Part shown: one piece after another, positions 1 to 53,711 of the stretch
How positions within the stretch are numbered: position 1 is the stretch's first letter
Layout: every line of letters starts with the position of its first letter
DNA from: Azolla caroliniana
Lineage: Eukaryota; Plantae; Polypodiophyta
Direction of reading: 5' to 3'
Assembly: GCA_043228905.1 (NCBI GenBank)
Contig: JBHGNT010000013.1
Span: forward strand, 6,448,001 to 6,512,000
Length of the DNA stretch: 64,000 bases
Translations under genes and position numbers: made by a program
Notes under the pieces: model-generated
Told to the model about the DNA's origin: nothing
Database searches by the model: none
The model's input: only the letters and a program-made list of their open reading frames with translations

Positions 1-1104
1 TACCCAATCCCCTACCACATTCCCCGTAGACACCCATTCAGACCCCTGTCACCATTGGTATCCGAATCTTCTCCATCGATTCCTCCTTACCCTTCTGACC
101 TCGCTTCCCCGTGGATTGTCCCTCGTTGCTGTGGTTTATGTTTTATTAATTGTATCAGTTTTTATTTTTTATTTTTTTATTATTTTTAAAATTTTAAATT
201 TATTCTTATTTATTTATTTATTTATTTATTTTATTTATTTATTTATTTTATTGATTTAATTTATTTGTAATGACTATTATTGTCAGTTTGATTTGTATTT
301 ATTTAATTAATTAATTATTTATTCTTTTCTGTCTTTTTTATTTTTATGATTTTTATTATTTTATTATTTTTTCTATACCGATTATTATTATCTTTATTTT
401 ATTTTATTTTATTTTATTTTATTTATTTATTATTTATTATTTTGTTTTGTTTTGTTTTTTGAGTGGTTTTTTCTTTTTCTTTTTCCTTTTTGCTTTTTTC
501 TTTATTCGTTTTCCTTCTTCTTCTTCTTTTTCTCTCCTTCTTCTTTGCTCTACCTCCCCTCCCTCCTTTTTTAGCTCTCCTCTTTCTGCTTGTCCCCTTC
601 CTTCTCACTACACACACGCTCTGCAGCAGTCTTCCCCTCCTCCACCCCCAATCTCTATTCGTGGATTTCTCCCACCCTCAACGTCCCCACCCCTACTCCA
701 TCAGTTGCCTGCCCCGGTCACCACCTCGTCTCCTCCACACCTTGCTTTCCCACGCCTCAGGTAGGCCCTTCCCCCCCCCTCTCTCGTTTTGCCACACCAC
801 ACTACACTCCCCTCGTGTGTTGTACCTGCCCTTCGTCCCTCTCCGGGGGCCATGGCCGCCACCATGACGTTGTCCTCCTCCTCCTGTCACCGGCACACTA
901 CGGGCCTCCCAACCACGCCGTTTACACGCCCCCATGGCGTCCATAGCCGTTGCCCCGTCGCCGCCGCCCCTCCTCGTGGCGCTGCCCATTCACGCTGCCC
1001 CACCGTCCCGGCGTTTTTCGTTCCCCCCGAGGTGGCCGCGACAGCCGCCTCGTCGTTTCACCCTCCCCACGTCGTTGGCCGTTTACAGACCACTCTGCCT
1101 CGTG

Positions 1105-1497
1105 GTTCGAGGGGTCCAACCCCTCGAACTACCCGTTGTTCGAGGGGTCCAACCCCTCGAATCACACAATGTTCGAGGGGCCCAACCCCTTGAACTACCC
1201 GTTGTTCGAGGGGCCCAACCCCTCGAACTACCCGTTGTTCGAGGGGCCCAACCCCTCGAACTACTCGTTGTTCGAGGAGTCCAACCCACCACACCCAACA
1301 CAGTGTTCGAGGGGCCCAACCCCTCAAACCAAACCCAGCCCAACCCCTCGAACTACATAGTGTTCGAGGGGCCCAACCCCTCGAACTACCCGTTGTTCGA
1401 GGAGTCCACACCCAGCCCAACTCCTCGAACACACGTTGTTCGAGGAGCCCAAACTCCTCGAACCACACGTCGTTCGAGGAGTCCAACTCCTAGACCA
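1105..1497. repeat. Tandem array of about 11-12 copies of a 33-bp palindromic unit (gttcgagggg-cccaa-cccctcgaac plus 8-9 nt linker)
   Basis: Units start at about 1105, 1138, 1171, 1204, 1237, 1270, 1305, 1362, 1396, 1438 and 1472. Intact units form a 10-bp stem with a 5-6 nt loop; some units are partial. Confidence 0.95.
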
Positions 1498-1652
1498 CGT
1501 AACCCTTAGTTGTTATGTTACTACGAAGTTAGGACCCCAAGTAAAATAAAAATAAATAAAAAAAAGCAGGGGAATCTATTTAAACTACCCGTACTTGCTG
1601 ATTCGTGATCACATTTACCTATACTAATATTTTTCCTTGCAGGTTGCCAACG

Positions 1653-4600
1653 ATGACGCCTCCCCAATTCATCAAACTCCTCCACGCATACTACCCCGAC
1701 GGAGGGTGCGGTTCCTTAGTCATTCCAGTGGTGTTCAAGAATACCCGATGTACTTACCGGGTCCCCACAGCCGCCACGCAGCTCAAGTACCTCGAACCCG
1801 ACGTGTTCGCCACTCTCTCACGACTTGGCCTCAAGTTCTTCCTTAGGATCAGGCCGTGGGGCGTCCTACCCGAACTGGTCAACCGTTTCCTCATCGGGTA
1901 CAACCCCGATACGGGCCTCGTCGATATGCAGCCTTTCACAGACTCCCACCCCGTCGCATTCCAGTTCACCGCGGCCGACGTTTGTGCTATGCTACATTTA
2001 CCCCTCGAGGGCGCCCCCTTCCGCACCACGAGGACCCCGGGGTTTATCCCCGACATCATTCCTGTCGCCTACGCCGAATACTCTGGACGCGAAGGGTGGC
2101 GTTACACCGAAATCCCTCTCCATCTCCACGACCATTGTAGCACCATTGCCCAAATCGGTGACACCGCACCTACCGATGCCACCGCTTGTATCACCAGTGA
2201 GTACCTCAAGTGGGCACATGATCCACAACCGGTCTAGTGGGCTCACGAGGTTGTCCGCCGGGTCCGAGAATGGCACACACGACCCAAATCGACTGTCAAT
2301 TTCGCGTGGTTCCTCACCCGCTACTTGTGCGCAAAGTTCAGCATCGGACCCCCCACCCCTCCCTTCGTATGCTGCCATGAACGCTTCCGCAAGATCACTG
2401 TCCCAGGCCAACTTGAACGCCTTCGCCTCCCTGAACGCGACTTTTTACGACAGGTACACCAAGGTGAACAGGCACGGCCATCGGCGCACAAACAACCCCC
2501 CGATCACCCACGTGTCAGCCGAAGCTAACCTCGACACCCCGGAGGATATCACGAATCGTGTCAAGGAATTCCAGACACACGAGTTCACCCCCACCGAAAT
2601 CCAGGCCTTGTCCACCACTTTCCACTATGTGTCACATCAGAACACAACCACGACTCCACGTTCCCGCAGCTGCACCACTGAGTTAATCTTGCGCGACCAA
2701 CGGAAGCCACCAACCCCGCCTCCACCCACCTCGCCAACCCCTCCACCCCACAAATCCTCTCCCCCCGCTCCGGCCACAACTACCCCACCTTTCCCGTCCA
2801 CCACCACCGACGACACCCCGCACCCCCGACCCCATAAACTCGCCCGCCACGCCGCCCCCGACACCGAAACTCCCGACCGGCCCTCAACCGCAACCCCGGC
2901 AGTTCCCCTCCAACCCACCCTCGCCCCCGCCGAAATGGCAACCCCGCTACCGCCACCCCCACTCCCGACCTCCGTGCCCTACTCGACCTCCCTCACTGTA
3001 GTTACTACCCACCCTACCCCCTCCCTCGCCGTTCCCCCCAAACCCTTAACCGACATGGTGGCCGACCTCCTCAAGATGACTGTCGTCGTGAACCGTCGCC
3101 TACTTCAAGTTCAGGCACAGGCCCAACAGACCGCCACCGACCAACACGAGACCTCTACACGGAATGAGATCTTGGTCGCTGAGGTACAGAGCGCCCTCCA
3201 TACCAACACATGCCAAGCGGCCGCCCACGACCTCCTCAAGCAAGAACTCCTAACAAAGCAAACCCGACACCAACAACTCGCTGACGAATTCCAACAAGCT
3301 CGGACTACCTGGCACCACGACCAGGAACGCGCAGCGCAAACACATGCCGAACTTTCGGCCGAGTACGTCTGCCTCACCACCCAACACCAACTGACCGAGG
3401 CCCGCCTCGCAGCCGTGACGGCTGATCTCTCCGAACGGTCTGAGGCCCTGGCCGCCGCCATGGCCACCACTCACCAACTCACGAGTGAGATCACCACCCT
3501 CAAGGCTGAACGAGACGCCATGGTCCACCAAGTCGAAGTCGCCAATGAACGGAATCGATGTCTCCTCATCAAACACCACCGCCAATGCGCCGACCTCGAA
3601 AAGGACATCCTTCAACTCCGCACGTCCAAAGCTGCCCTTGAACACACCCTCACCCCCGGTGTGACGGACCCCTCCACCGTTCAGACCCCTCTCCTTCCCC
3701 CAACTGGCTCTCCGAATATAATCTAGGCACTCTCGGTGTACGTGACCTCAACCTCCCTGCTCTCCGAACTTTTCACTGCACCACGCACACCATGCACCCT
3801 CCTCATCCAAGCAACGTGCGTCCTTCGGTCGTTAGCCACCACGCGTCGCGTATTCTTTGACGACACCACACCCCCAGACCGGTAGACCTTCATCCGAGTA
3901 CTCCCCGAAGACAACCACACCCTCACCCTCTTCATGTTGTACCAAGAAGCCACCGAAGAACCTGCTCCCCCAGCCGGCGACCTCTTCCCCCAACACCTCC
4001 CCATTTTGTTCCTCGAAGGTATGGCCTACCTTCACACCACCCTCACCCCCGACTTAGACATCTCCGACCTGATCTATTTCACCTACCCTTCTAATGTAAC
4101 GATGCAAGTCACCGAAGACCAGCTGGCCCACCTCTTCACAACACTGGTGTGCTTACACCACATCGCCGACACCCTCACCTGCACCTTGTTGGAAAACATG
4201 ACGACCTCCGTACCCCCTTTCGGTTTCCTCCGGCTAATACGCGCTTGGCAAACCGCCTGGGACGTTGGGGTTCGTACTCACATATTCAGCATCGAATACG
4301 CCACGTTCAACTGGCCCACCGACCTCAAGGCTGACGACATACTGGAATTAGCCCTATACTTCGACGTTTCCCGCGAGTATCAACTCATGACGTTCGATGA
4401 AGCTCATGCTCGTGCCCTCCTACCCCCACACCCCCCTTCTCCCCCCCCAGAGATCGACCTGGAGGGGGACCACGACTCACCTGATGAACTTGACACCCAG
4501 CCACCGCCTCGCCCTCACCCTCCCTCCTCCCCGTCTCCAAGTCCCCCCCCACCCCCACCACCTCCCCCACCTACTAGCCCACCTCCCTTCCCCCCTCACC

Positions 4601-5711
4601 ACTCGCCCCCACACCCTCACCTCAATGAACACCACGTCCCCGACCACACACATCCCATGTTCGGTGATAACCCCTTTCGCACACATCCCTCGGCTCACCC
4701 CCTTCCCCCCCCACCACCCGACACTTTCCCCCTCCACACACGGGTCGTCACCCACACGGGTCGTCACCCACCCACCTCACCCGCCTCTACAACTATTACC
4801 CCGAAGTCGCCTCCGAACCCCAAGTCAACGTCTTCCTTTATCCCCATGTTTACCGCGATAAGATGTCTACTTGGGCACCGCAAACCCCACCCCCACTCGA
4901 GGGTGGCACCACCCCGTCGCCGACCCCCTCCTCGAACCTCCCGGCACCCAACGCCCATGGCGTCTCCCTTGGTTCACACACACATCCTTCTGCGAATGGC
5001 TCGCCCTCCACCCCCCCGAGCTACCCACCAACCCCACCTTTTCTCCCCTCCCTCGTCGTTGGCCATGGCCCGATTTTCGCGCCGCCCAGGCACGCCTACC
5101 CACCCTTCAATTCAACTGGCCGTTGTTCCCCCGACCCCCGCGCACATTCCCGACCGAACCTGACATGATCCGGGCCATGCGACGATTCCTACGTACATAC
5201 CTCGACGTCCCGGACCCCGACATTCAAGCCAGCCTTCAGTTCCTACAACTTCTACTCATTCTCCTTGACTCTGGCCCGTACGAAGCCCCCCCCCTTCCAA
5301 CGGCACAACCACCCAGCGTGGGGCCTCGCCTTCAATTTGAACAAAGGTCCCACTCGCCGCCAACTGGTCGGCCTTTGGACCCGCGTCAACATACTCCCCG
5401 CAACCTACAAAAGGGATTTTGAAACCATGATCGACACGCATTTTTTCCCCGCTTACATAAGCTTTAGTCGAAACCCCCCTTCTCCCTTCCCCGGCCACAA
5501 CACCTGCACTTGGCTCACCGGCCCCAAGAAAGATTTCTTCACAACAACCAACCAATTGCAGGAAATCCGACTACCACCACTGAACATCCGTCGTCTTTGC
5601 CATCATCTCCGCCGCCACCCGCCCCCCGACGAACCCCCCTACTCAATTCTATTCGCCCCCGACGCCCGAAGCTCCCCTCCCACAGTGCACTCGGGAGTGT
5701 GCACTCATTAG
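1653..5711 (+). pseudogene. Disrupted giant accessory ORF of the Athila-like element (PMD/plant-transposon-protein-like N-terminus, Pro-rich linker, coiled coil, unknown C-terminal domains)
   Basis: ATG at 1653 follows the acceptor-like ttttccttgcAG (1641-42). ORF pieces 1605-2237, 2325-2528, 1825-3726, 3934-5163, 4871-5422 and 5265-5711 join through TAG stops (2235, 3724, 3883) and frameshifts in C-rich runs. The homolog at 59300-60150 has CAG in place of the 2235 stop and reads through the ~2500 frameshift. Confidence 0.7.
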
Positions 5712-5722
5712 GTTGGGGGGGA

Positions 5723-6290
5723 TGTTAAGCGTTGGGATAACAACACAACCAGTCACGAATAAGAACGCATCAACAAGGACGTAGTACGAAGAGGAAACGG
5801 CAAGAGGAAAGGAAAGCAAAGAGATGGCCAAATGTGAAAGGCACATACCCTAAACGTGAAAGCTATATAAACCACTTAGTAGTGGCTTTGTGGGGGTTCT
5901 CCCATTTGTAAAGATCTCCTATTGATTAGAGCTAGAGCTTCCTCTCCTCTTTCTTGTAATCTTTGAGCTTAAGAGAGATTAGTGAAGTGTTGAGTTAGAG
6001 AACACTAATCTCTCTCCTTGTTGGTGCTAGACCTCTTAGCAAAGAGGGTTAATAATAGACATACTCTTGCTTCTTATTGTCTATATCTATTGATCTATTG
6101 TCTATGAGAGAGAGCTTGAGAGAGTGAGAGAGATATCATGCTTAATCATTCACTAATCGTTGAGTGAGTGTGAGGCTCGGAGGTATCTGACAACCATCTC
6201 CGCCCGATTCGCCATCAAGAGGGTATAGGCCGGTCCGAATCCCGCCACGACATCGAGGAGCTTACTCCATCGATACATAGATCCTTAACA
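5723..6290 (+). repeat. 3' LTR of Athila-like copy 1 (568 bp)
   Basis: Inverted ends TGTTAAG...CTTAACA, TATA ctatataa at 5863-5870, PPT immediately upstream. Confidence 0.9.
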
Positions 6291-29665: not shown

Positions 29666-32600
29666 TGTTGAGAATCAAGCTCAACTTGGTCTAGTGTGTG
29701 AACTCACCTTGAGAGTGAAGAGACATTCCAACGGTCAAGAGTCACCATTATGTCACCACTTTGTATTCTAGCATTTAGTATGAGTCATAGAATCATATTC
29801 TATGACACATAACTTATGAGCTTTCACATTCCCCATGCTCCATGAGTCTTGTAGTTAATGAAGAGAGAGGGTGACTACATAAAGCACCCTCCTCCCACCT
29901 TGTATAACGTTGTGTCTTTCTCCTTTGTTAATATACTTAACCTTGCGTATACTTTGTTGTGTGTGTGTGTGTCTCTCTCTCTATCTCATACACACACACA
30001 CACACACACACAGTTCACACCTATTCCGCTTCACAAGAATCCATCTCTTGATTCTTTACATGGTATTAGAGTGATTTGGTAGCTCGATCTAGCCCATTCG
30101 CCTCATCGTGATCGTGTGTTGTGCTCCACGCCGACGACCAAGAACCGGCTCGTCGCTATCGTAGCTTTGCTACATAGCTCGCATTCGAAGAGAGAAGAAG
30201 AAGAAGAAGAATCGACATAATGAATACTCAAATGGGGAGCGCTCTCCCTACCGAGAAGTTGGATCAAAACAACTTTGCATCTTGGGAGTACAAGATGCAC
30301 CAATACCTTGTCGGACAAGGCTATTGGAGCTACATCAAAGGAGCGCATGAAGACCGACCTGCCGAAGCGGCTCCCGAATACGCGACATGGGAACAAGCCG
30401 CAAGCTGCGTGATGTATTGCTTGGCGACATGTGTTCACGATCACATGCTTGGCTACATTCGCGAAGCCAAGACGCCGGAGGAGGCATGGGAAAATCTACG
30501 AAAGATTTTCGCGGCAAACACGACTGCGAGGAAGCTTCAACTCCGCCAAGAGTTGAACAACATTCAACAAAGGGACATGTCCATTACAACATACACCTCG
30601 AAGATCAAGGAGCTTTGCGATTCGCTCAGCTCAATAAGCGTAAATATCGATGATGATGAGATGGTCCAAATATGCCTCGGCGGCCTCGCACCACGGTTCG
30701 GCGCGATGCGAACCGCCGTTCTAGCACGGGAGAAATCTCCCTCCTTCTTCGAGCTCCAATCAATGCTATTGGTCAAAGAAAACCACGTGCGTACAAGGAG
30801 CAATGAGTTGGAAGGCCACATGCTTTACACGCACTCTAACGGAGAAGAGGATGCGGACAAGCGAGAGGCCGATTCGGCTAAGGACAAGGCGGACGGGGTC
30901 CAACCTACAACAACAACTCCCAATTTCGGCTGCAAAATGGAGGCTAACGAGGAACCTTTGCAAGAAGGGGGAGCTTCCACTCCGGCCCAAGCCGTCAAAA
31001 CGCAACCGAATGCGGATATTGCGGAAAGCTCGGCCACCACGAAGAAGAGTGCCGAAAGAAGATGCGTGAATCGGCTTCCACAAGCCGACAACTCACGAAT
31101 TACGCACACAATTCTGACTACGAAGAGTATAGCGAAATGTATGGGCACAACTCCGACTACAAAGATTGTGGCGGAATGTACGCACACAACTCCGACCGTG
31201 GCGGAATGTTCATGATGAAACATAAAGCAAACTCTATGTCGGCCTCTACCTCAACTAGTGCCTCCAGTCCGGAAGACGTATGGTTCGTCGATTCCAATGC
31301 CTCAAACCATGTGACATCGCATGAAGAATGGTTCTAAGAACTTCGAGAGCTGGACCGACCCGGCTATGTCGAAACCAGAGACGACACGACGCACTCGATT
31401 CGGCACATCGGCAATGTTCCGTTCGGAAAAGAAGGTAAGCAAAATTACATTAAAAATGTCTTGCATGTACCGACCATTACGGAGAATTTGGTCTCCGTGA
31501 GCCAAATTGTAGAGCAAGGGATGCAAGCTCAATTTAATCAAGGCGGTTGCTTCATCGAAAAACAGGGCCGACTCATTGCACGCGGACGAAGAGAGGGCTG
31601 AATGTTCATTCTCGACTCACACAAGATGAAATCGGCCATGTTTGCAAAGGGCATGAAAGCCGACTCCGACATAGAGTTATGGCACAAGCGGATTGGCCAT
31701 ATAAATCTCCAAAAGCTCAAAGGAATGAAATCGAAAGGAGTCGTCATCGGACTCCCGACATTCAAAGAGAAGGAGATTGAAGGTGTATGCGAAGCGTGCC
31801 AATTCGGCAAGCAACACTGACACCCATTCCCGAAAGAGCAGAACGTAAGCAAAGGTCTACTCGATGTAGTCCATTCCGACATATGGGGACCGGCGTAGAC
31901 GACTACATTCGGCGGATGCCGATATTACGTGCTCTTCATCGACGACTTCTCCAGGCACACTTGGATCTACCCGATGCGGCAAAAGAACAAAGTGTTCAGA
32001 CACTTCCAAACTTTCAAGAATGAAGTCGAGAAAGCCATGGGCCGACATGTACGTTGTCTTCGATCAGATGGCGGCAAGGAGTACTTCTCGGACGCCTTCA
32101 CGACGTATCTCCGAAAGGAAGGAATTCGGCGAGAATTCACTTGCCGACACACTCCGCAACAAAACAGGGTAGCCGAGCACAAAAATCGGCACATCCTCGA
32201 AGTAGCGCGGGCCATGATGAACGAGAAGCATATGCCCAAGTCATATTGGGCCAAAGCTGCAAATACGGCCGTCTACCTAATGAACCGATGCACAACATCC
32301 GGCGTGCACGAGGTCACTCCGCACGAAAAATACTTTGGAAAGAAGCGGGACTTATCGCACACCCGGATATTTGGCGCGATAGCGTACGTGCACATCCCCG
32401 ACGAGAAGCGTCAAAAGCTTGATTTGAAGTCGGAGAAATGTATCCTCATAGGATACTCACTGGAGCAAAAGGGGTACAAGTGCTACAACCCCTCAACTCG
32501 AAAATCTCGAGTAAGTCGAGACTTCGTTTTTGACGAGTCCGCATCCTGGTACGCACTAGAGACAACTCCAACTCCGACTCCGCTCAACCCGGAATTCGCC

Positions 32601-35153
32601 GAACAAGAGATCGAGGATGAAGATCGCCTTATGCGCATATTCGAAGAAAGTCCGATCACGACCTGATTGAGCGGACCACTAGAGCCTTTGAGCGATCAAA
32701 GCACATCACGGCTTAGCCCGAAGATGGACAAAGGCAAGGCGAAAATGGTGGAATATGAAGACGATCGCTTTGACGACGATGAATCGACTCACTCACTCGA
32801 CAGTGAGTTCGGCGGCTTCGATGTACCAATCGGAGCTAAGAAAGCCCTCATCTTTGCAAATGAAAAGCTCCGCCGATCCACTCGTGAAAAGAACCCCCTA
32901 AGCCGATTCGGCTACAACGATTATATGGCATACCATTACGCCTTTATGATGAAGGTGACAACAGTACGGGAGCCAGAAACCTTTTCCAAAGCAGCCAAGG
33001 ATCCGCGATGGATCGAAGCCATGAATGAGGAGATGCAGGCACTACGCAAGAACGAGACATGGGATCTCGTTCCCACCTCACCACACAAAAAGGCGATCGA
33101 ATGCAGATGGATTTACAAAGTGAAGTACAACGCCGACGGTTCCGTCAACCGCTACAAAGCGCGACTCATAGCGAAAGGCTACGCCCAAATGCACGGAGTT
33201 GACTATGAGGAGACCTTTGCCCCGGTGGCAAAGATGACAATGGTGCGGACCGTAATTGCACTTGCCGCGGTGAAAGGGTGGCACCTCCATCAAATGGACG
33301 TTAAGAACGCCTTTCTACAAGGCGAATTAGAAGAGGAGGTGTACATGATACAACCACCTGGCTTCAACTCGAGCACCCATCCGAAAGCTGTATGCCGACT
33401 CAAGAAGCCACTCTATGGCCTCAAGCAAGCACCGCGTGCTTGACATTCGAAGATAACGCAATATCTTCATCAAATCGGCTTCCGTATGTCAAAATCGGAC
33501 AACTCCCTCTACATACAAAGCGATTCCACAAGTCCGATCGTCATCATTTTATATGTGGATGACCTAGTCATTGGAGGGGAGCATCTCGTCGAAATCAATA
33601 AAGTCAAATCCCTCCTTTCCGACAAGTTCGAGATGACGGACATGAAGGAGCTCCACTACTTCCTCGGCATCGAGGTAATTCGGACTTCGGCCGGAATCAT
33701 GATCTCTCAACGGCACTACATCCTCAACTTGTTATACAAGTTCGGAATGGCTGAGTGCAAATCCGCGGCAACCCCGCTCGATCGCAATCTCAAACTAGAT
33801 GCGAACTCCGGCACCAAAGCGTGTGAGCCGACTCAGTATCGGCAACTCATCGGGAGTCTCATCTACCTCACGATCACACGACCCGATCTCCGTTATCCGG
33901 TTGGTCTCCTTAGTCAATTCATGCAAACACCGCGTGATACTCACTTGGATTGCACTAAGCGAGTTCTACGCTACGTGAGCGGCACAATGGATTGCAGCAT
34001 CCTCTACAAGACCACGATGCCAATACGACTTGAGGGGTACACAGACGCCGATTGGGCCGGCTACAAAGCCGATAGAAGATCAACCTCCGGATTTGTTTTC
34101 TCCCTCTGCAGTGGAGCAATATCCTAGAGTAGCAAGAAGCAGCCTATCGTCGCTCTTTCGAGTCTGGAGGTGGAATACAAGGGCGTAGTTGTAGCTGCGT
34201 GTGAAGCCGTATGGCTCAAGAGGATTTTGAAGGATCTGGGCGTACCCATCAAGGATTCGACTTCCCTTTAATGCGACAACATGAGCAATATCTATCTGGC
34301 TCGGAACCCGGTGTTCCACGCGCGGACAAAGCACATCGAAGTGCATTATCACTTCATCCGAGAGCGCGTTCTGGCTAGCGATGTCGACCTACAACACGTT
34401 AGCACAAAACTTCAAACGGCCGACATCTTCACTAAAGCCTTAGGAGCCGACAAGATGTGGCACTTCATGACCGATCTCGGATTGACGATCCCTGACCTGC
34501 CAAGCTTGAGGGGGAGTACTGAAGACATTACGCAATAACGCGTGGATTCCGCAAGCCGCGCACACTACGCAACAATGCGTGGATTACGCAACCACGCAAC
34601 GAAGCCGCGAAGAGCCGATCTACCGCGCAAAGCCACGAAGAGCCGATCTACCGCGCAAAGCCGCGAAGAAAGACGCAAGCCGAAGCACAGACTTCGCAAC
34701 TATGCACAACGCAAGCTGGAGCACGGATTCCGCAACTCCGCATAAATGCGAGTCGACGCGGACTTCGGAACGCGAGTTGAAGCGGATTTCGGATACCGTT
34801 TGAAACCGACCCGACTTGAGCTTGAGGGGGCGTGTTGAAAATCAAGCTCAACTTGGTCTAGTGTGAACTCACCTTGAGAGTGAAGAGACACTCCAACGGT
34901 CAAGAGTCACCATTATGTCACCACTTTGTATTCTAGCATTTAGTATGAGTAATAGAATCATATTCTATGACACATAACTTATGAGCTTTCACATTCCCCA
35001 TGCTCCATGAGTCTTGTAGTTAATGAAGAGAGAGGGTGACTACATAAAGCACCCTCCTCCCACCTTGTATAACGTTGTGTCTTTCTCCTTTGTTAATATA
35101 CTTAACCTTGCGTATACTTTGTTGTGTGTGTGTGTGTGTCTCTCTCTCTATCT

Positions 35154-35211
<58 letters not shown>

Positions 35212-39593: not shown

Positions 39594-40467
39594 CTGCTTC
39601 AGTTTCAGTTGGTAAGACTCGGTTCGGAGTTGACTACGAACCTTAGTGGGGTGCAGTCGGTCGGCTCACCCGATATCGTTCTAGTTGGTTTTGAACCCGA
39701 GTCGGTTTGGTTTCGGATAATTGTTGCTGAACTTGCTCGGAGTGACTTCGGTAACTTGAGGGACAGAATCGGCTGGTCTTCCCGAATGTTGCCGAGTCGA
39801 AGTGAGCCCGGTTAGCTTCCGATCGTATGCCGAATATCGATTACACGAAACTGATTGTTTGGGCCGATTCTGCTTCGGATGACTGCAGCGATGAGAGGGA
39901 CATATCCAACTGATCCTCCCGAATGTCGATCAGCCGAGTGAAGCACAAATTTGGTTGTTGCCTGGAGACCAATCTGCAGCGGGTGGTTACAGCAAGTGGG
40001 TGAATAGCGTCTGGTGACCTATTTGGATGTTGTTTAACCGAATGAAGCACGATTGGGTCGGTTGTTGCTCAAGGAGCTCCCCTCAAGTAGTTACAATCAC
40101 AGGAACAGAGTACAACCGACTGGCTTACTCCAATTTGTGATTTAACACAGTGAGATGTGAGCTTTTTGTTTTTTTTCTTCTCCCTTCTGTTTTCTTCAAA
40201 GAAAACGAAAACGGAATGTTGTGTGGTGTACTATGACGGCCGACGGTGGGTTGAAGAACCTCCAACGCTCTGATACCAAATGTTGGGGACAAGGCCGTCA
40301 ATGCGGAAGTGCAAGCAACATTCGTGATGAAGAAGAACCTGTGTATGCGCATAAGCAAGATATACACACAAAGAGAGATAGGCTCAAAGAAAACGTTATA
40401 TTCTAATAGCAACAATTACAAAGGATGACAACAAACCTTTACTAAAGGTTACAAAGCCACTTTACCT

Positions 40468-43400
40468 TGTCGTGAAGAAAACCGGCCATAAGCGGAATCG
40501 GAGAAAAAGGCGCATGAACCGGCTCTTACATGGGTGGACGCGAGAATTGATATTTTGTACATAATTCATAATTAGGTCGGCTGATGTAAATAATAGGTAG
40601 TACACATTTATTAGGGGATTTGTGAGTATCTCTGTTGAAAGGGACAGGGAATAAAGCGATTTGACTAGGGGAGAAGGGTCTCCCCTCGGCGAACTATTTA
40701 AGGAGAGAAGGAAAAAAAAAGGGTATCGCGCGTTGGCGAGGATGAAGTGCTGCTGCAGAACTGAGTGCCGAGCTCTCTCTCCTCCGATCGTCGTTCTTTG
40801 TGGGTGTCGGGAGTTTGCTTCCTCTACTTCGTGGACAACCCGTGTGCTTCCAGCAGAGGCTCTCTCTCTCTCTCCCCTCCCCCCCCCCTTCCCTTTTTGT
40901 TTCTTCAACTCGAGTGGTTGTCGTCTGTGTGCGTGAGTAGGACCCCATGTCAGGTCCATTACCGGTTTGCCGGTTGTAACTGTTCGAGTTGTAAGCTACT
41001 GATTCTAGTAATCGGATTCCTGTTTCTTGCTCTTATTTTCTTTCTGTGTATCTGCAACTCTTTCTCTCTCTCTCTCACTCTCTCCTTGGTCCAAGACCCC
41101 CGTGGTCCCGCCTCTTCCTGCACGCGAGCGCGAAACTTCGCGACAAAATTGGTGAACCCGACGTGAACAAGTGGCAAAGGAGTCGGGCGATGAGGGGATC
41201 GGAGCTAGCAGAGGCAATGGCGGTAGCCGTTGACCGGCTGGTGAGCGCTCGCGAAGGGACGGGTACCCTCGATAGAGCCATTGAATCGACCGTCGGCAGC
41301 ATAGGCCGATTCGGTGGGAAGAATCCCACAAGTTATTTGGAGGCTTACCGGGCCGAAATGATCATGAGGGATATCCCGGTGGACAGGCGGCTATCCGGAT
41401 TCCCTCGGGTGGTGACGCCGAGCATCCATGCAGAGGTGCTCGAGGTGCTGGCCGGATGCCAGACTTGGGAGGAGTTCGAGCTACAGCTCCTCGAGAAGTA
41501 CGAGTTTGATGACACGCTTCGACTATCAAGGCGGGACTTCATGGCGTGGGTGGAAAGCCCTGGAAAAGGGAGAAACACGTCGGCACTCCTCCAGGACCAT
41601 GCTCGAAACGAGTCGAGTACTACTGTTTGTCAAGTCGGTGGACGCGCTCGACAGGGAAAAGATGGGTCCCCTATTGGAGACGCACGAAGGGCTCACGGTA
41701 GACTGGGCCGTGGTAAAATGGGTCTGCAGTCGTTTCGACAAACGGCGCGAGTGGAGCGACAAAAGCTCATCGGAGTCAGGACCGGTCCCGACGAGCAGGC
41801 TCGAGGAGCCGGTATCGGTGCCAGCCGGAAGGAAGGAAGAGACCCGATTTTGGTTGTAGTCGGGGTCGGCATCGAACGACCTGGTCAAAGGCCCATCAGG
41901 AGGAGCTGACATAAATGGTGCGCGACCTGCAGATCGCACAGGCCCGGAGAGACAACGGCGAACAACCTCGCGACCGGAGGCCGCCAGCTGGGCAGCGGTG
42001 CATGTGGTGTGACGCGATCGGTCACATTCGGAAGGATTGCACGGATTTCGCCGATGCACTCAGGACCAACGTGGTGTACCTCTGGAACGGGCGGGTGCAC
42101 GCAAGCAAGACCCGGAGAGCCCTAGAACTGAATACGGGGCGCGACCAAATGAAGAGGTTGATGGAAGAGGTCGCGACACGGCATGTAGAAGCCGTTAGCT
42201 ACTCAGTGTCGGCGGGAATTCGGGTCGGGGGTGATAAGACCTGGAAGGCGAAGGACTCCGTATTCTGGCCGCTAGTGCTAGAAGGCCTCTCCGGAGTTTG
42301 GTTGAAGAAGGAAGAGGCGGACCGCGCGGAACAGCGGGTCCAGGAGGTCACTGGATGGGACGATCCGGTCGAAGAGAAAACGAGCTTCGTAGAAGCCGCT
42401 TGCCAGAACTACGAGGTTCTGGTGGAAGATAAACAGGTAGGAAAGGCTAGAGGGGTTGGTTCCCCGCAGAGGTACGAGACCCGGTTCGGACCGAAACCGA
42501 TCAGTGCCGGTAACCCAGGCGCGCCGGATGGGAAGAAGCAGGCGGGGTTTCGGTTGAGCACCGAAATCGAGAGAGCAACGGACCTACGGAAGGTCCTTGA
42601 AGAGCGGATCCTCGACAATAAAGTGGAGCTGTCGTTGCAGGAGGCTGGGAATCGCCAAGAGGGAGTTCCACGACTCCATCGTAGACTTGGTGAAGCGGAA
42701 GAGGCTCTCGACGGAGCCGGAACTGGAGAAGCCGGTGGAGGTGCGGACTACGCACTTAGAAGACACGGCCCTAGAAGACGAGTTGGCGGAAAGCCACTAC
42801 GCGAAGCCACATTGGGCCAGGGCAACTACGGAAACCCCTCTACGGATCGGCGACGTTCCGGAACCGGTGGTGGCCTTGGTAGACCATGGATCCGAAATCA
42901 GCCTGATGTCCATGGATTTCTACAAGAAGGGTAAATGGCCGATCAACACCAAGCATGGGTGGAAGATACACGCGGCGACGCGTGCTACGGAGGAGTTGCA
43001 TGGTGCGTGCTCAAATGTACGCGTAAAGATCGGTGACGTCGAGATAGATCAACATTTCTTTGTGCAGGAAACATCCTTGCACCCGATGATTCTCGGTGAA
43101 CCGTACATTACGGCAGCACGCATGGAGACGAAGGTGCTGGACAACGGTTCGGCGTACGCGCGCGTCAAGAGCCAAGACGGTCGGCATTCCGTCCAGTTCA
43201 TGACCGTACGTCTGAACCATGTGAGGAATCGCGAGACCGTCGGCAGGACAGTCGAGGGGATTTTTAGAGAGGGCTATCAAGGCGTGGGGTCGCGGTAGTC
43301 CGGACGTACCAGAAGAACCCCACACATGTATAGTAGGTAGGAAGTTTTGGTTCTTCAAAAACAGAGGTTGTACTATAGCCTGCGTCAGCGGCCGGGAGCG

Positions 43401-46400
43401 GAAGCAAGCGGAGGAGCGGCTCAGGGGATGCAAAGTCCTCTCCCCTGACGAAGAAATCAGCGGCGCCGTGGAGGCGGTCTCTTTTGACGACACCTTGGAT
43501 GAGTTGTGAAAGGTGATCAGTGAAGACCTTAGAGAAGACTGGACCATTCCGGTTAGTTCGATGGGAATGTATGAAGTCATCGCGGACTTCGGGGAAAGGA
43601 TTGGGTCGGATCGGATGGCCCGCGTGGATACAGAGTACAAGATTGTGGACTGGAAGGTGAGGCTAGTCGTGGCACCCTTGCCGGAGGTCAGCGAGGAGCG
43701 GATAAAAGGGGTTGCGTTGGACCCAAGTTTACAGAATCCGGCTGGCATAGGGCACCGGTTCACCGATATAACGCTACGGGAGCTCAAGGTCGGTGGGGGT
43801 GGCTTTCTACTACCGGCGAAGGAGGACAGGTTTCGGAGAATGCTCGGAAGGCATGGGAAAGCCTTCGCGTTCTCGCCGGAGGAGATCGGGTGCGTGGACC
43901 CGACGATCGTCGAACCGATGGTGATCTTCACGGTACCGCATGTATCGTGGAAACTCAAACCGATTCCGATGTTGAGAGCTCACATCCCGAAGTTGATGGA
44001 GCTTCTAAAGCAAAAGGTGGAGATGGGCATCCTCGAACCATCGAGTGCCCCATATTCGAATCGGTGGTTTACGGTGCCGAAGAAGAATGACACGTTGCGC
44101 TTTATTCAGGACCTGCAACTGGTCAACAAGGTGACCATCCGTTATGTAGGAATCAGATCGACCATAGACGAGTTTGCGGAGGCCTTCACTGGAATGTCGA
44201 TCTATTTGGTCGGTGACTTATACTCAGGGTACGACTAGTTCCAGCTAGCTGTGGAGAGCAGGGATATCACGACGATGCGAACTCCTCTCGACCTAGTACG
44301 GATGTGTACCTTACCACAAGGCGGGACGAATTCGGTGGCGCATATGGTGAACGCAATGAACAAGGTGCTGAGGGACTGCATCCCGGACATCACCATGCCA
44401 TTCTTGGACGACATCCCGATAAAGGGGTGTCCGGTGGAAGATGCGGACGAGACTGTCGGTCCAGACGGATGTCAGAGGTTCGTTGTGAACCACATCAACA
44501 ACTGCTAGAAGGTGCTGTAGAAGCTCGAGAGCGCACGACTCACCTTCTCCGGAGAAAAATCGGTGTTCGGGCAGTCGGAGATCTTGGTGGTCGGACACCT
44601 GTGCGGCCCTTACGGTAGGAAACCGTCTCCGGCAAATGTAGAGGCCATCTCCGCGATGAGGAACGATTGCGGGCCGGTTACAAAGGTCCGCAGATTCTTG
44701 GGTGCATGCGCATTCTACCACATCTAGATCCCGCACTATGCACATGTCGCGGAACCCCTCTACGGACTATTGAAAAGGGGGCGTAGCTTTGAGTGGAGGA
44801 CGGAGCACACGGAGTCGGTCCGGAGACTAAAGGAGGCGCTTACAGTAGCACCAGCTCTCTGTAAAGCGGCTTACGACAAGGGAGTCCCCATCTACGTGAC
44901 GGTGGACACGAGCCCGACCGGGATCGGGTGGGTGATCAACCAGGAGGACGAGGATGGCGCACAGTTCTCGATCCGGTTCGAGGCGAAGGTATTGAGCAAG
45001 CGGCAGCGAGGATACGCCCAAGTCAAGCGCGAACTATGGGGTATCGTTTTGGCAGTCAAGGGTGACAGGGACTACCTGATCGGGATGGAGGTAATAATCG
45101 AGACGGACTGTCTGCCGATACTCGGCATGGTTTCCGGATGCGCGACGTCGGACCTAGCAATGCTCTGGTGGATAGCGTACATCAAGTCCCTAAACCCGGA
45201 GATACGGCACATCTCCGGAAAGGATAACGCCATGGCCGACATGCTTTCAAGAGCGAGGTTCAACGACGAAGACGGCATGGTTTCGGATGACGAAGAAGTC
45301 GGCGAGGACTTCTTCGGGTCGGCCAACGTGACGACGAGGAAAAGGGACACTCCAGCGCTTAACGAATTCGACGAAAGTAGGTACGACAGAGAGTGGCTCC
45401 AAATCAGGAGGTTCCTACGGGCAATGACGTCGGACGCAGCGTGGACGAGAGAAGAGGCGAGTCAGGTACGGAAGAAGGCGTACCGATTCTTCCTACAGGA
45501 CGGGTGCATATGGAGGCACCCAAAGAAAAGAAACGACATCCCGCTCCGAGTAGTGGCAAAGAAAGAAGAACAGGAGGAACTATTGGCGGCATTTCACGAG
45601 AGTCCTTGGGCCGGGCACCGCGGAACGTGGGCCACATTCGAGAAGCTGAAGGAGAAGTACTGGTGGCCAGGGCTGTACCAGGATGTGCATCGGTTCGTAA
45701 CGACTTGTGAAAGCTGTCAGATGCACTCCGTAGTCTGACATCGGGACGAGCTACACCCGACCTACCCGCCTACGGTCCATTTTAAGTGGATGGTGGACTT
45801 GGTGACGATGCCGATGGGAGTACGACAGATGCGATACCTGGCGCTTGCGCGAGAAGATTTAACGAACCAGGTGGAAGGCCGTGCACTGCAGAACAAGACA
45901 ACCGCGGCGGTATGCCGGTTCCTGATTGAAGAGGTAGTGTGTCGGTACGGGTGCATTGGGAAGATCGTGGCGGACCGGGGAGAGCTGGATGCGCAGGAAG
46001 CTGAGGAGCTGTTCGATCGTCTAGGGGTCAAACTCTCCCTCACTACTGAGTACAATCCGGAGGTGAACGGGAAGGTAGAACATGGGCACAGGCCGATCGT
46101 AAAGGCGTTGGTGTGTGCATGCGGAGGGCAGGTCGGGAATTGGCCGCGGCTCCTTCCTTATGCATTATGGGCGGACCGAACTACGCACAATTCAGTGACA
46201 GGGTTTATGCCGGCAGAGCTGATGTATGGACAGAAGCCGATCATGCCGATGGAACGGACGGTTTCTTCATGGGCGGCGGTAGACTGGAAGGACGAGATGA
46301 GCCGGGAGGAATTGTTGGCGGCGCAGATTCGGCAACTCGAGCGGAGGCCGGAGGACATGAAACGAGCGAAGGAAAAGTTGCAGGCAGCAAGGGAGCGAAA

Positions 46401-47429
46401 CAAGGCCCGGTTCAACCAGACGCACCGGTTGCGACCAAGGAAGGCCGAGGAAGGCGACTGGGTCTTGGTATATGACAACAACCTCGACAATCAGCACAAG
46501 GCAGTGCGAAAGTTCGCGAGGAGATGGTTCGGGAACTACACGGTGATGAGCGTGAACGACAACGGCACGTACCACCTAGCGGAACTCGACGGGACACGGT
46601 TAGCGGTACTGGTGGCCAGGAAGCAGATCAAAGCGTTCAAGAAGCGGTTCAAGGACGAGCCGGACCCGGAGGGCGTGGACGAGAGCAACAACGATGATCA
46701 GTTCAGGCCCGGCGAAGAATCGGAGAGCGACTAGTGAAGCCGGTTTTCTTCGGTATCTACCCATCTCTGGCGCATGCAAGTGGATGCGTGGTTTGGTGGG
46801 GGTGGATGCTGTGAAGAAAACCGGCCATAGGTGGAATCGAAGAAAAAGGCGCATGAACCGGCTCTTACATGGGTGGACGTGAGAATTTATATTTTGTACA
46901 TAATTCATAATTAGGTCGGCTGATGTAAATACTAGGTAGTACACATTTATTAGGGGATTTGTGAGTATCTCTGTTGAAAGGGATAGGGAATAAAGAGATT
47001 TGACTAGGGGAGAAGGGTATCGTGCGTTGGCGAGGACGAAGTGCTGCTGCAGAACCGAGTGCCGCGCTCTCTCTCCTCCAATCGTCGTTCTTTGTGGGTG
47101 TCGGGAGTTCGCTTCCTCTGCTTCGTGGATAGCCCGTGTGCTTCCAACAGAGGCTCTCTCTCTTTCTCTCCCCCCCCTTCCCTTTTTGTTTCTTCGAGTC
47201 GAGTGGCTGTCGTCTGTGTGCGTGAGTAGGACCCGTGTCAGGTCCATTACCGGTTTGCCGGTTGTAACTGTTCGAGTTGTAAGCTACTGATTATAGTAAT
47301 CTGATTCCTATTTCTTGCTCTTATTTTCTTTCTGTGTGTCTGCAACTCTCTCTCTCTCTCACTCTCTCCTTGGTCCAAGACCCCCGTGGTCCCGCCTCTT
47401 CCTGCACGCGAGCGTGAAACTTCGCGACA
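40468..47429 (+). mobile_element. Ty3/Gypsy element with tRNA-Trp PBS and no chromodomain; LTRs 40468-41145 and 46807-47429
   Basis: LTR ends tgtcgtgaag...cttcgcgaca, PBS tggtgaacccgacgtgaa 41150-41167, PPT-like ggtgggggtgga before 46807, domain order gag-AP-RT-RH-INT. Confidence 0.95.
41190..46734 (+). pseudogene. Gypsy gag-pol, disrupted
   Basis: CMWCDAIGHIRKDC knuckle, ALVDHGSEI protease, LRFIQDLQ / LPQGGTNS / PFLDD RT, TVDTSPTGIG and ADMLSR RNase H, HESPWAGHRG...CESC integrase Zn finger, YALWADRTT core. Confidence 0.93.
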
Positions 47430-48152: not shown

Positions 48153-48155
48153 AAT
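48101..48155 (+). other. tRNA-like / SINE-head remnant with Pol III A and B boxes
   Basis: A-box-like tagtctaatgg (48104-14) and B-box-like ggttcgaat (48147-55) at tRNA-like spacing, truncated by the Athila-like LTR. Confidence 0.5.
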
Positions 48156-48315
48156 TACGCTTGGATCGCACCACAACCGGTAATGAAGGAGAGCGCCTCA
48201 ACAAGGATGTAGTATGGCTAAAGGACCTACGAAGAGGGAATGGCAAGAGGGAAGAGGGCTAAGGGACATCCAAGTGTGAAAGGTCCGCACCCTAAATGTA
48301 AATGCTATATAAACC

Positions 48316-51300: not shown

Positions 51301-53711
51301 GGAGCCTCTCGTTTGCGGATACTACGGCTTTCTTCGCTCCATTTATCCGGATGTCAAGGCCTTCAAACTCACTATCGAGGGAGTGAGACGATTCGTTGCC
51401 GTCGTAGTGATCGTCTTCATACTCCGGCATTTTTGCCTTGCCTTTGTCCATCTTCGGGCTAGGCCGTGATGTGCTTTGATCGCTCAAAGGCTCTTTGGTC
51501 CGCTCAGTCGAGTCGTGATCAGACTTTCTTCGAATATGTGCGTAAGGTGATCTTCATCCTCTATCTCTTGTGCGGTGGATTCCGGGTCGAGCAGAGTCGG
51601 AGTCGGAGTTGTCTCTGGTGCGTACCAAGATGCGAACTCGTCAAAAACGACGTCTCGACTTACTCGAGATTTTCGAGTTGAGGGGTTGTAGCACTTGTAC
51701 CCCTTTTGCTCCAGTGAGTATCCTATGAGGATACATTTCTCCGACTTCGGGTCAAGCTTTTGACGCTTCTCGTCGGGGATGTGCACGTACGCCATCGCGC
51801 CAAATATCCGGGTGTGCGATAAGTCTGGCTTCTTTTCGAAGTATTTTTAGTGTGGAGTGACCTCGTGCAGACCGGATGTTGTGCACCGGTTCATTAGGTA
51901 GACGGCTGTATTTGAAGCTTCGGCCCAATAAGACTTGGGCATATGCTTCCCGTTCATCATGGCCCACGCTACTTCAAGGATGTGCCGATTTTTGTGCTCG
52001 GCTACTCCGTTTTGTTGCAAAGTGTGTCGGCAAGTGAATTCTCGCTTAATTCCTTCCTTTCGGAGATACGCCGTGAAATCGTCCGAGAAGTACTCCTTGC
52101 CGCCATCCGATCGAAGACAACATACATGTCGGCCCGTGGCTTTCTCGACTTCATTCTTGAATATTTGGAAGTGTCTGAACACTTTGCACTTTTGCCGCAT
52201 TGGGTAGATCCAAGTGTGCATGGAGAAGTCGTCGATGAAGAGCACGTAATATCGGCATCTGCCGAATGTAGCCGTCTGCGCCGGTCCCCATATGTCGGAA
52301 TGGACTACATCGAGTAGACCTTTGCTCACGTTCCGCTCTTTCGGGAATGGGTGTCAGTGTTGCTTGCTGAATTGGCACGCTTCGCATCCACCTTCAATCT
52401 CCTTCTCTTTGAATGTCGGGAGTCCAATGACGACTCCTTTCGATTTCATTGCTTTGAGCTTTTGGAGATTTATATGGCCAATCCGCTTGTGCCATAACTC
52501 TATGTCGGAGTCAGCTTTAATGCCCTTTGCAAACATGGCCGATTTCATCTTGTGTGAGTCGAGAATGAACATTCGGCCCTCTCTTCCGACTCATTGCTCC
52601 TTGTACACACGTGGTTTTCTTCGACCAATAGCATTGATTGGAGCTCAAAGAAGAAGGGAGATTTCTCCCTTGCTAGAACGGCGGTTTGCATTGCCCCGAA
52701 CCGTGGTGCGAGGTTGTCGAGGCATATTTGCACCATCTCATCATCATCGATACTTACACTTATTGATCCGAGCGAGTCGCAAAGCTCCTTGATCTTCAAG
52801 GTGTATGTCGTGATGGACATGTCCCTTTCTTGAATGTTGTTCAACTCTTGGCGGAGTTGAAGCTTCCTCGTGGTCGTGTTGGCGGCGAAAATCTTTCATA
52901 GATTTTCCCACGCTTCCTTCAGCGTCTTGGCTTCTCGAATGTAACCGAGCATGTGGTCGTGAACACATGTCGCCAAACAATACATCACACGGCTTGCGGC
53001 TTGCTCCCATGTCGTGTATCCGGGAGCCGTGTCGACGGGTCGGTCTTCGTGCGCTCCTTTGATGTAGCTCCAATAGCCTTGTCCGACAAGGTATTGGTAA
53101 ATCTTGTACTCCCAAGATGCGAAGTTGTTTCGATTCAACTTCTTAGTAGGGCGAGCGCTCCCCATTTGAGTGTTCATTATGTCGATTCTTCTTCTTCTTC
53201 TTCTATCTTCGAATGCGAGCTATGTAACAAAGCTACGATAGCGATGAGCCAGTTCTTGGTCGTCGACGTGGAGCACAACACGATCACGATGAGGCGAATG
53301 GGCTAGATCGAACTACCAAATCGCTCTGATACCATGTAAAGAATCAAGAGATGGATTCTTGTGAAGCGGAAGAGATATGAGTTATGTGTGTGTATGAGAG
53401 AGAGAGAAAGAATAAGACACAGAGAATACGCAAGGTAAAAGTATATTAACAAAGGAGAAAGACTCAACACAATACAAGGTGGGAGGAGGGTGGTTTATAT
53501 AGTCACCCTCTCTCTTCATTAACTACAAGACTCATGGAGCATGGGAAATGTGAAAGCTCATAAATTATGTGTCATAGAATATGATTCTATGACTTATACT
53601 AAATGCTAGAATACAAAGTGGTGACATAGTGGTGACTCTTGACCGTTGGAGTGTCTATTCACTCTCAAGGTGAGTTCACACACTAGAGCAAGTTGAGCTT
53701 GATTCTCAACA
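48316..53711 (-). mobile_element. Ty1/Copia family A, copy 3, inserted in the Athila-like 5' LTR; internally deleted
   Basis: LTRs 48316-48862 and 53335-53711, TSD aaacc (48311-15, 53712-16), reverse iMet PBS 53323-53334. ORFs nearly identical to A2, but the knuckle and protease are missing. Confidence 0.96.
49664..50166. mobile_element. Solo LTR (503 bp) inserted at the RT/RNase H junction of Copia A3
   Basis: TG...CA ends, 5-bp TSD ttgta (49659-63, 50167-71). Removing it restores GILYKTTMPIRLEGY. Confidence 0.92.

What the first reader, a model, noticed from the sequence alone, without database searches (positions are those of the whole stretch)
1653..5711. Giant (~1350-codon) accessory ORF filling the 3' region of an Athila-like LTR element
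Seen: six ORF fragments chain into one frame from ATG 1653 to a stop abutting the PPT. The breaks are three TAG stops (likely CAG>TAG) and slips in C-rich runs. The sister copy (59300-60150) has CAG at the first stop and reads RDFLRQVHQG..HKQP straight into THV..TPEDI..RVKEFQT, supporting two of the joins. Knowledge: Athila/Tat elements can carry extra 3' ORFs, and plant mobile domains (MAIN/MAIL1-type) occur in Gypsy elements. Inference: LVNRFLIGYNPDTG...FTAADVCAMLHLPLEG resembles the PMD/plant-transposon-protein motif. After it come a Pro-rich linker, a ~200-aa coiled coil and two further globular-looking regions (about 3730-4430 and 4950-5700) that I do not recognise. It may be an undescribed retroelement cargo protein, for example an anti-silencing or assembly factor.
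Basis: partly seen in the sequence, partly recalled or inferred. Interest (0 to 1): 0.8.

Follow-up and report, generated by a model that had tools for sequence, protein, structure and literature searches.

The report
Giant extra gene in plant retrotransposon
A plant jumping gene carries, just before its end repeat, a broken copy of one 1,429-amino-acid extra gene that is intact and conserved in related copies; its protein likely pairs up and binds chromatin to help the element escape silencing, and more than half of it matched no named family in the databases searched.

Summary
Real, and one gene. Two natural copies from public assemblies (P0017, L001) read through 1,429 codons without a stop and are collinear with window 1653-5711. 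The window copy is dead: three stops, four frame changes, about 96 codons missing. The stop abuts the polypurine tract and LTR in 5 of 5 copies. Purifying selection is strong: dN/dS 0.15 overall, 0.10-0.22 in each region measured. A branch point and splice acceptor 10 nt before the ATG are shared by the window and L001. Layout: N-domain, linker, 200-residue coiled coil (predicted parallel dimer), then about 770 residues with no named relative; no membrane helix. The plant-mobile-domain (PMD) reading of the N-domain is a lead only: ESM Atlas 0.83-0.85 and a post hoc motif, no Pfam hit, folds uninformative. PMD-plus-coiled-coil extra ORFs are known in Tat/Ogre elements, so this is a new variant; size, 3' sense position and the C-terminal half differ. 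Anti-silencing by analogy with VANC/MAIN is my best guess (about 0.45), untested. Athila membership could not be tested because no reverse transcriptase is available.

The parts
430..760 (+). Pyrimidine-rich stretch, candidate 5' leader exon of the extra gene (inferred)
   Evidence: No ATG in 430-760; aligns with sister 58820-59056 with the donors in register, score 253 against 222 +/- 10 for shuffles, a weak margin in low-complexity DNA
761..1642 (+). Candidate intron: GT donor at 761, branch point at 1624-1628, AG acceptor at 1641-1642; holds five upstream ATGs
   Evidence: Donor context shared with the sister (59056); branch point and acceptor 10 nt before the ATG shared with L001. No RNA evidence
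1101..1498 (+). Tandem array of 33-bp units inside the candidate intron
1653..2690 (+). N-terminal domain (residues 1-345 of the intact copy); PMD/DUF1985-like core at about residues 45-232 is a lead; stop at 2235, frame change near 2500
   Evidence: 74% identity to P0017 1-282; dN/dS 0.10; Atlas and motif leads
2691..3050 (+). Pro/Thr-rich linker, variable in length between copies
3051..3660 (+). Coiled coil of about 200 residues (450-652 of the intact copy)
   Evidence: Heptad period 3.52, 0 of 400 shuffles reach it; predicted parallel homodimer; dN/dS 0.20
3715..4416 (+). Helical domain C1 (residues 667-900), no named relative; stops at 3724 and 3883
   Evidence: dN/dS 0.15; 23 database fragments down to about 30% identity; no Pfam hit
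4417..4761 (+). Second Pro-rich linker
4737..4772 (+). 16-bp duplication at the place where about 96 codons of the intact copy (residues 1018-1117) are missing
4773..5711 (+). Trp-rich region C2 (rest) and terminal region C3 (to residue 1429), no named relative; frame changes near 4890 and 5297; stop 5709-5711
   Evidence: dN/dS 0.22 and 0.11; Atlas no usable hit; no Pfam hit under E 1
5710..5722 (+). Polypurine tract overlapping the stop codon
   Evidence: Identical 18 nt before the LTR in 5 of 5 copies
5723..6290 (+). 3' LTR (TG...CA)
   Evidence: 85-90% identical to the LTRs of L001-L004
53712..60270 (+). Sister element: LTR (its first part at about 48155-48315, split off by a nested insertion), primer site at 54140, gag, protease, no reverse transcriptase seen, residues 142-446 of the extra gene

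Best explanation
This is a decayed copy of a single 1,429-codon extra gene of a Ty3/gypsy LTR element, kept by purifying selection in the family, whose protein likely dimerises through its coiled coil and likely acts in trans on chromatin, through a PMD/VANC-like N-domain, to keep family copies from being silenced. Shown: one gene, its place against the purine tract and LTR, selection on every globular region, death of this copy. Predicted: the parallel coiled-coil dimer and a spliced mRNA using the acceptor 10 nt before the ATG, either from an internal leader exon (donor 761) or from the LTR transcript. Inferred: PMD/DUF1985 fold of residues 45-232 (about 0.7); given that fold, a chromatin-binding, silencing-opposing role as for VANC and MAIN/MAIL (about 0.6); the C-terminal regions C1-C3 would then be the effector or host-protein-recruiting arm.
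For: Intact copies P0017 and L001. dN/dS window vs L001 0.15 (95% bootstrap 0.13-0.18, 1,191 codons), N 0.10, coiled coil 0.20, C1 0.15, C2 0.22, C3 0.11; unfiltered check: third positions differ at 36-51%, first and second at 6-17%, LTR control 16/12/9%. Window-only changes 21 non-synonymous to 8 synonymous, against 5 to 10 in its closest relative L002. Splice signals. Atlas neighbours of residues 1-345: unnamed streptophyte clusters 0.86-0.88, DUF1985 0.85, PMD (14% of members) 0.83; the ten best hits with a family share one family or clan. A motif abstracted from MAIL/MAIN sequences matches residues 83-122, 0 of 20,000 shuffles; its positions are more conserved among diverged hits (0.62 vs 0.40). 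Dimer model: score 0.56, best of 3 controls 0.00, pLDDT 89, runs agree in at least 98% of contacts; that mark was reached by 21 of 30 solved homodimers and 0 of 23 single chains (eukaryotes 17 of 29 and 0 of 30). L003 and L004 share one frame change and two stops yet have different 3' flanks, which fits a product that need not be made in cis. Papers (passages): MAIN and VANC share a fold and VANC21 is predicted to dimerise by a coiled coil (PMC13547354); PMD-C proteins sit on DNA motifs and oppose Polycomb (bioRxiv 2024.09.27.615353); VANC targets lie in tandem repeats (PMC5735166). This family has tandem arrays in two non-coding regions.
Against: No Pfam hit to PMD, DUF1985, Transposase_28 or ATHILA ORF-1 for the intact protein, its parts, or any of 52 relatives. 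All Atlas scores are under 0.9, where shuffled proteins often score. The motif was written after seeing the target, and only P0003, P0016 and P0017 match it; the window copy and P0019 do not. The N-domain has no net positive charge (17 K/R, 20 D/E in 45-232) and only weak basic clusters. The two tandem arrays share 5-mers but no 6-mer in 4 or more copies each, and shuffled units share a 6-mer 45% of the time. Host PMD proteins MAIN/MAIL1 were first described as promoting TE silencing (PMC5418596), and no gypsy-encoded PMD function was shown in the passages read. More than half of the protein is unexplained. The dN/dS filter (45% local identity) lowers dN somewhat and dS is near saturation in the N-domain. 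Intact copies come from short-read assemblies and could be collapsed from near-identical copies. The dimer controls were unrelated proteins, not other coiled coils.
Confidence: 0.45

Rival explanations
1. The protein is a structural or transport accessory (particle scaffold, chaperone, or cell-to-cell movement factor), the functional stand-in of the Athila 3' 'env-like' ORF, made from a spliced subgenomic RNA.
For: Same position, sense and splice arrangement as Athila ORF2 (PMC7197481 passage; PMC7264820); long coiled coil; Athila-domain proteins are predicted to oligomerise by coiled coils.
Against: No membrane helix: best 19-residue hydropathy 1.28; no PF03078 hit; the N-domain lead points to a nuclear family.
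Confidence: 0.2
2. The protein tethers the integration complex to chosen chromatin: the N-domain reads DNA or chromatin, the coiled coil spaces, and C1-C3 bind integrase or cDNA ends.
For: Same architecture evidence as the best explanation; nuclear roles are proposed for Grande and Retand extra ORFs and DNA binding is predicted for Transposase_28 (PMC11963269).
Against: No integrase of the family is at hand to test; flanks of L001-L004 and the window show no common target.
Confidence: 0.15
3. The ORF is a polyprotein cut at its two Pro-rich linkers by an element-encoded protease into three or four separate accessory proteins.
For: Globular regions are separated by long variable linkers; the sister shows a second protease-like stretch at 57653-57900, upstream of the leader, by eye; PMC4408406 suggests element proteases may process extra-ORF products.
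Against: The second protease has no Pfam hit and no significant match to the first; no cleavage site was identified.
Confidence: 0.12
4. It is a captured host gene or a neutral passenger with no use to the element.
For: Most copies seen are broken in the stretch they cover (5 of 7: window, sister, L003, L004, L005).
Against: dN/dS 0.12-0.42 over all codons in 16 of 16 pairs that overlap; relatives down to 31% identity are all short unnamed fragments, with no named host protein among them; the stop is fused to the purine tract in 5 of 5 copies.
Confidence: 0.03

Closest known systems
PMD-coiled-coil extra ORFs of Tat lineages IV (Ogre) and V, Ty3/gypsy (PMC4408406 passages; PMC6317226 passages)
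   Same: Extra ORF in a non-chromovirus-type gypsy element; PMD-like domain (lead here) followed by a coiled coil; function unknown
   Different: There 5' sense (IV) or 3' antisense (V); here 3' sense with a splice acceptor, no PF10536 hit, and about 770 further residues after the coiled coil. That paper found no extra ORFs in its moss and lineage I-II Tat elements
Athila ORF2 / 'env-like' 3' sense ORF (PMC7197481, PMC7264820, PMC6317226 Additional file 5)
   Same: 3' sense position, predicted spliced expression, primer site of the tRNA-Asp type (tRNA identity recalled, not tested; 72% of Athila elements use it)
   Different: No membrane helix, no PF03078 hit, no sequence similarity found; much of the protein is a soluble coiled coil and unknown domains
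VANC anti-silencing proteins of VANDAL MULEs (PMC5735166, PMC13547354; PDB 9LNK not matched here)
   Same: TE-encoded, DUF1985/PMD-type fold (lead here), coiled-coil dimer (predicted in both), tandem repeats in non-coding parts of the element
   Different: VANC is in DNA transposons of dicots; this is a retrotransposon; no target motif shown; no sequence or fold match obtained
Retand antisense ORFs with Transposase_28 and SMC-like coiled coils (PMC11963269)
   Same: Long pol-to-LTR region with extra ORF and tandem arrays; weak SMC-like match of the coiled coil (E 0.038)
   Different: Antisense there, sense here; no PF04195 hit
Host PMD proteins MAIN, MAIL1, MAIL2 (PMC5418596; bioRxiv 2024.09.27.615353)
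   Same: Motif likeness over residues 83-122 and, by eye, near 195-234
   Different: Host genes of angiosperms; below Pfam detection here; different C-terminal parts

Membership tests
Plant mobile domain / DUF1985 group (PF10536, PF09331) | Pfam match at or near the curated cut-off | tested here: not met
   No hit at E up to 1 or 10 for P0017, L001 parts, window pieces; 0 of 52 relatives
Plant mobile domain / DUF1985 group (PF10536, PF09331) | Conserved N-terminal core motif of MAIL/MAIN-type PMDs | tested here: inconclusive
   Post hoc pattern matches P0003, P0016, P0017 (0 of 20,000 shuffles) but not the window copy or P0019; Atlas 0.83-0.85
Plant mobile domain / DUF1985 group (PF10536, PF09331) | Fold shared with MAIN and VANC21 | tested here: inconclusive
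   Model pLDDT 46.7, pTM 0.23; too poor for fold searches
PMD-coiled-coil extra ORFs of Tat IV/V | Coiled coil C-terminal to the PMD | tested here: met
PMD-coiled-coil extra ORFs of Tat IV/V | 5' sense (IV) or 3' antisense (V) position | tested here: not met
   3' sense, against the purine tract, same strand as gag in the sister
Tat clade | Additional archaeal-type RNase H in pol | not testable with these tools
   No pol of this family in the window or loci; no genome held
Athila (non-chromovirus, OTA) | RT/RH/INT phylogeny within Athila | not testable with these tools
   No RT available
Athila (non-chromovirus, OTA) | Primer site for tRNA-Asp | tested here: inconclusive
   Site seen 5-6 nt after the LTR in the sister and L004; tRNA identity recalled; TatII also uses tRNA-Asp
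Athila env-like ORF2 | 3' sense ORF behind a splice acceptor | tested here: met
   Sequence signals in window and L001; splicing itself not shown
Athila env-like ORF2 | Transmembrane segment | tested here: not met
   Best 19-residue Kyte-Doolittle mean 1.28
VANC anti-silencing system | Encoded by a MULE DNA transposon | tested here: not met
   LTR, purine tract, gag and protease
VANC anti-silencing system | One short motif repeated in the element's tandem arrays | tested here: inconclusive
   Two arrays share 5-mers, not beyond chance
VANC anti-silencing system | Sequence-specific binding and loss of silencing marks | not testable with these tools
   Needs bench work

The most novel reading that the evidence does not exclude
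A high-copy gypsy family of a probably seed-free plant encodes its own VANC-like, sequence-specific anti-silencing machine in one giant protein: a PMD-fold reader aimed at the element's tandem arrays, a 200-residue dimerising rod, and three new C-terminal domains that carry the effector step which for VANC is still unknown, with a second element protease possibly maturing it.
Probability: 0.2. Interest if true: 0.8.

Novelty: new variant of a known kind. Interest (0 to 1): 0.52.

Why it matters
What the extra ORFs of plant gypsy elements do is a long-standing open question (PMC7264820, PMC4408406). This family gives an unusually large case with an intact natural copy, strong selection on every globular region, predicted splice signals and about 650 residues of conserved sequence (C1-C3) with no named relative. 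If the N-domain is a PMD/VANC-type reader, it would extend transposon-encoded counter-silencing from DNA transposons to LTR elements and, if the host is a fern as other notes suggest, place element-borne PMD-like genes outside seed plants, which bears on whether PMD began in hosts or in elements (left open in PMC5418596).

Tried and rejected
No whole genome is held, so copy number, full element structure and RT phylogeny are open. Pfam, NCBIfam and PDB sequence searches gave nothing useful (one weak coiled-coil-type PDB hit, E 0.09). Word search for 785-2,501-aa relatives: none among 7,979 candidates (the cluster's representative is 754 aa and so out of range). The sensitive search covered residues 1-1200 only; the last 202 residues were searched only by words among 30-214-aa proteins, 9 hits of 48 candidates, 67-89% identical. 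AlphaFold models were poor (pLDDT 46.7 and 41.3), and fold searches gave only generic helical matches (best Z 5.0 and 8.3): no evidence for or against a new fold or a VANC21 match. Internal repeat idea (C1 like C2-C3, prompted by the misaligned A2): rejected, hhalign probability under 1%. No relatives in viral or prokaryote contigs. Testing a single Pfam family on L001 was not possible. No RNA holder listed: no evidence on expression. Shared motif between the tandem arrays: not above chance. Env-like membrane protein: no membrane helix. Second protease: no Pfam or pairwise support. Rows dropped: A3 used 33 sequences chosen because that set aligned correctly; dN/dS used only codons in windows of 45% identity or more, so the first linker has no window-vs-L001 value, and 5 of 21 pairs had no overlap. 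Sources and names were looked up for 10 of the 52 hits only. Literature searches for a prior description found none for this protein; Steinbauerova 2011, Wright and Voytas 2002 and Tanaka 2026 were not read, and Additional files 1, 3 (too large) and 4 (not read) of PMC6317226 list extra ORFs that could include relatives.
Full report
Observation. The window shows stop-free pieces in all three forward frames between ATG 1653 and a stop at 5709-5711 that overlaps a purine tract in front of a TG...CA LTR at 5723-6290. No genome is held, so I looked for natural copies elsewhere. The first 291 codons, read with X at the stop, found P0003, a 754-aa protein 75% identical that runs across the first stop, the first frame change and the second stop. 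Its cluster holds P0017, an uninterrupted 1,429-aa protein collinear with the whole region. A scan of metagenome contigs gave five loci; L001 carries the same ORF intact, followed by the purine tract, an LTR and unrelated flank. P0017 and L001 differ at 8 of 1,429 residues. Shuffled DNA of this composition gives at most 315 open codons (300 shuffles). The window copy has three stops, four frame changes and lacks about 96 codons near 4765.

Selection. Pairwise codon comparisons among seven natural copies gave dN/dS 0.12-0.42 over all codons in 16 of 16 overlapping pairs; window vs L001 0.15 (0.13-0.18), with 0.10-0.22 in each region measured. The lowest constraint is in the linkers and between the closest pairs (0.35-0.42), as expected if recent changes are post-insertion decay. 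Without the identity filter, third positions differ at 36-51% against 6-17% at first and second positions; the LTR control shows no such pattern. Changes private to the window copy are 21 non-synonymous to 8 synonymous, against 5 to 10 in L002: this copy is decaying. A search of 1.84 billion representatives with residues 1-1200 gave 52 hits, 56-644 aa long, 31-93% identical, covering N, coiled coil, C1 and C2; the 10 looked up are unnamed ENA records. The family is thus old and diverse, with no named relative in these searches.

Element context. The sister at 53712-60270 shares the LTR and part of the ORF and has a primer site, gag (PF03732, E 1e-9) and an aspartic protease, but no reverse transcriptase. 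Contigs from four runs cover it continuously but show loose ends where the first protease ends, so the sister probably has a deletion there and autonomy of the family is open. The primer site is of the kind I recall as tRNA-Asp, the main type in Athila (72%) and also in TatII (37%) (PMC6317226 Additional file 5). 'Athila-like' is plausible, untested. Other notes on this genome call the host a probable fern (e1-10598848, e1-10599056); I did not test that.

Expression. Window and L001 both have a branch-point word and a TTGCAG acceptor exactly 10 nt before the ATG although the DNA upstream differs; window and sister share a donor context behind a pyrimidine-rich stretch; five ATGs lie in the candidate intron and none in the candidate leader. 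This predicts a spliced mRNA ending in the 3' LTR, like Athila ORF2 (PMC7197481 passage), or a gene with its own promoter like Grande gene23 (PMC7264820, parts 1-2 of 3 read). There is no RNA evidence either way.

Protein. Residues 1-345 form an N-region, 346-449 a Pro/Thr linker, 450-652 a coiled coil (period 3.52, 0 of 400 shuffles; predicted parallel in-register homodimer, score 0.56 vs best control 0.00, pLDDT 89, contacts agree at least 98%; mark reached by 21 of 30 solved homodimers and 0 of 23 single chains), 667-900 a helical region, 901-1010 a second linker, and 1011-1429 Trp-rich and terminal regions. No membrane helix. Pfam finds nothing relevant. For the N-region the ESM Atlas lists DUF1985 (0.85) and PMD (0.83) clusters behind unnamed plant clusters, all under its 0.9 mark. 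Against MAIL/MAIN sequences read in a supplement (PMC5418596, part 1 of 12 of Data 3), residues 83-122 show the same spacing of conserved residues; a pattern written afterwards matches the intact copies and none of 20,000 shuffles but not the window copy, and its positions are the better conserved among diverged hits. I put the PMD/DUF1985 fold at about 0.7. The C-terminal half had no Atlas hit for 1015-1429; C1 was not sent to the Atlas. Both structure models were too poor to search with (and the fold searches).

Mechanism. Passages in PMC13547354 and bioRxiv 2024.09.27.615353 report that MAIN/MAIL1 PMD and the VANC DUF1985 domain share a fold, that VANC21 is predicted to dimerise by a coiled coil, and that PMD-C proteins sit on DNA motifs and oppose Polycomb silencing; PMC5735166 shows VANC binding motifs in tandem repeats. 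Two earlier notes on other genomes (e1-10590828, e1-10631996) pointed me to this link; I could not confirm a VANC fold here. The most economical reading is a dimeric chromatin factor acting in trans for its family; the shared breaks in L003 and L004 fit action in trans. The element has tandem arrays in two non-coding regions, but a common motif is not above chance, and the N-domain is not basic. Confidence 0.45; rivals are a scaffold or transport role (0.2), integration tethering (0.15) and a protease-cut polyprotein (0.12).

Comparison and novelty. Extra ORFs of 250 codons or more are common in gypsy elements and mostly lack known domains (PMC6317226 passages). PMD followed by a coiled coil is described for Tat IV and V (PMC4408406 passages), and Retand has antisense Transposase_28/SMC ORFs (PMC11963269 passages). 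This gene works, at best guess, like those and like VANC, but meets none of their membership tests fully: 3' sense, no Pfam match, no membrane helix, and about 770 residues beyond the coiled coil. [quoted passage not shown] Eight literature searches found no description of this protein; unread supplements and non-open papers may. Verdict: real, selected, new variant of a known kind; interest 0.52, up to 0.8 if the anti-silencing machine reading holds (0.2).

Noticed in passing
window 57653-58461: After its first protease the sister jumps into a stretch that looks by eye like the second half of another aspartic protease, followed by about 200 more codons. Contigs of other copies show loose ends at 57653-57655 in 4 of 4 runs, so other copies have further DNA here and the sister probably lost it (likely pol). 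No Pfam or pairwise support; no paper found for 'two protease domains'.
   Followed up: partly
L003 and L004, residues 1173-1233 of the extra gene: Both share one frame change and two stops but have different 3' flanks: a defective sub-lineage that spread, or a split C-terminal ORF; several cluster members start at the same downstream Met.
   Followed up: partly
window 5723-6290 vs L001: LTRs differ by about 12% while third codon positions of the adjacent ORF differ by 36-51%: strong constraint on the LTR or exchange of LTRs between subfamilies.
   Followed up: no
L004 3739-4831: The ORF, purine tract and LTR are followed directly by a primer site and 5' leader: a tandem element sharing one LTR, or an assembly collapse.
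   Followed up: no
window 1101-1498 and 54479-54735: Two tandem arrays (33 bp in the candidate intron; 18/54 bp in the 5' leader) both rich in TCGAA words; sharing not above chance.
   Followed up: yes
P0003/P0014 and P0016, near residue 720: Two near-identical database copies are broken at the same C-rich spot in different frames: assembly error or a slippage hot spot.
   Followed up: no
window 48316-53711: A copia element is nested in the sister's 5' LTR and has an inverted relative at about 29700-35160.
   Followed up: no
window 40462-47283: An unrelated, fairly intact gypsy element with RNase H and integrase hits.
   Followed up: no
window 55200-58200: Summed contig depth of about 700-2,700 in run X1 over gag to the second protease-like stretch points to a high-copy family, though the tool warns it is no copy number.
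   Followed up: no
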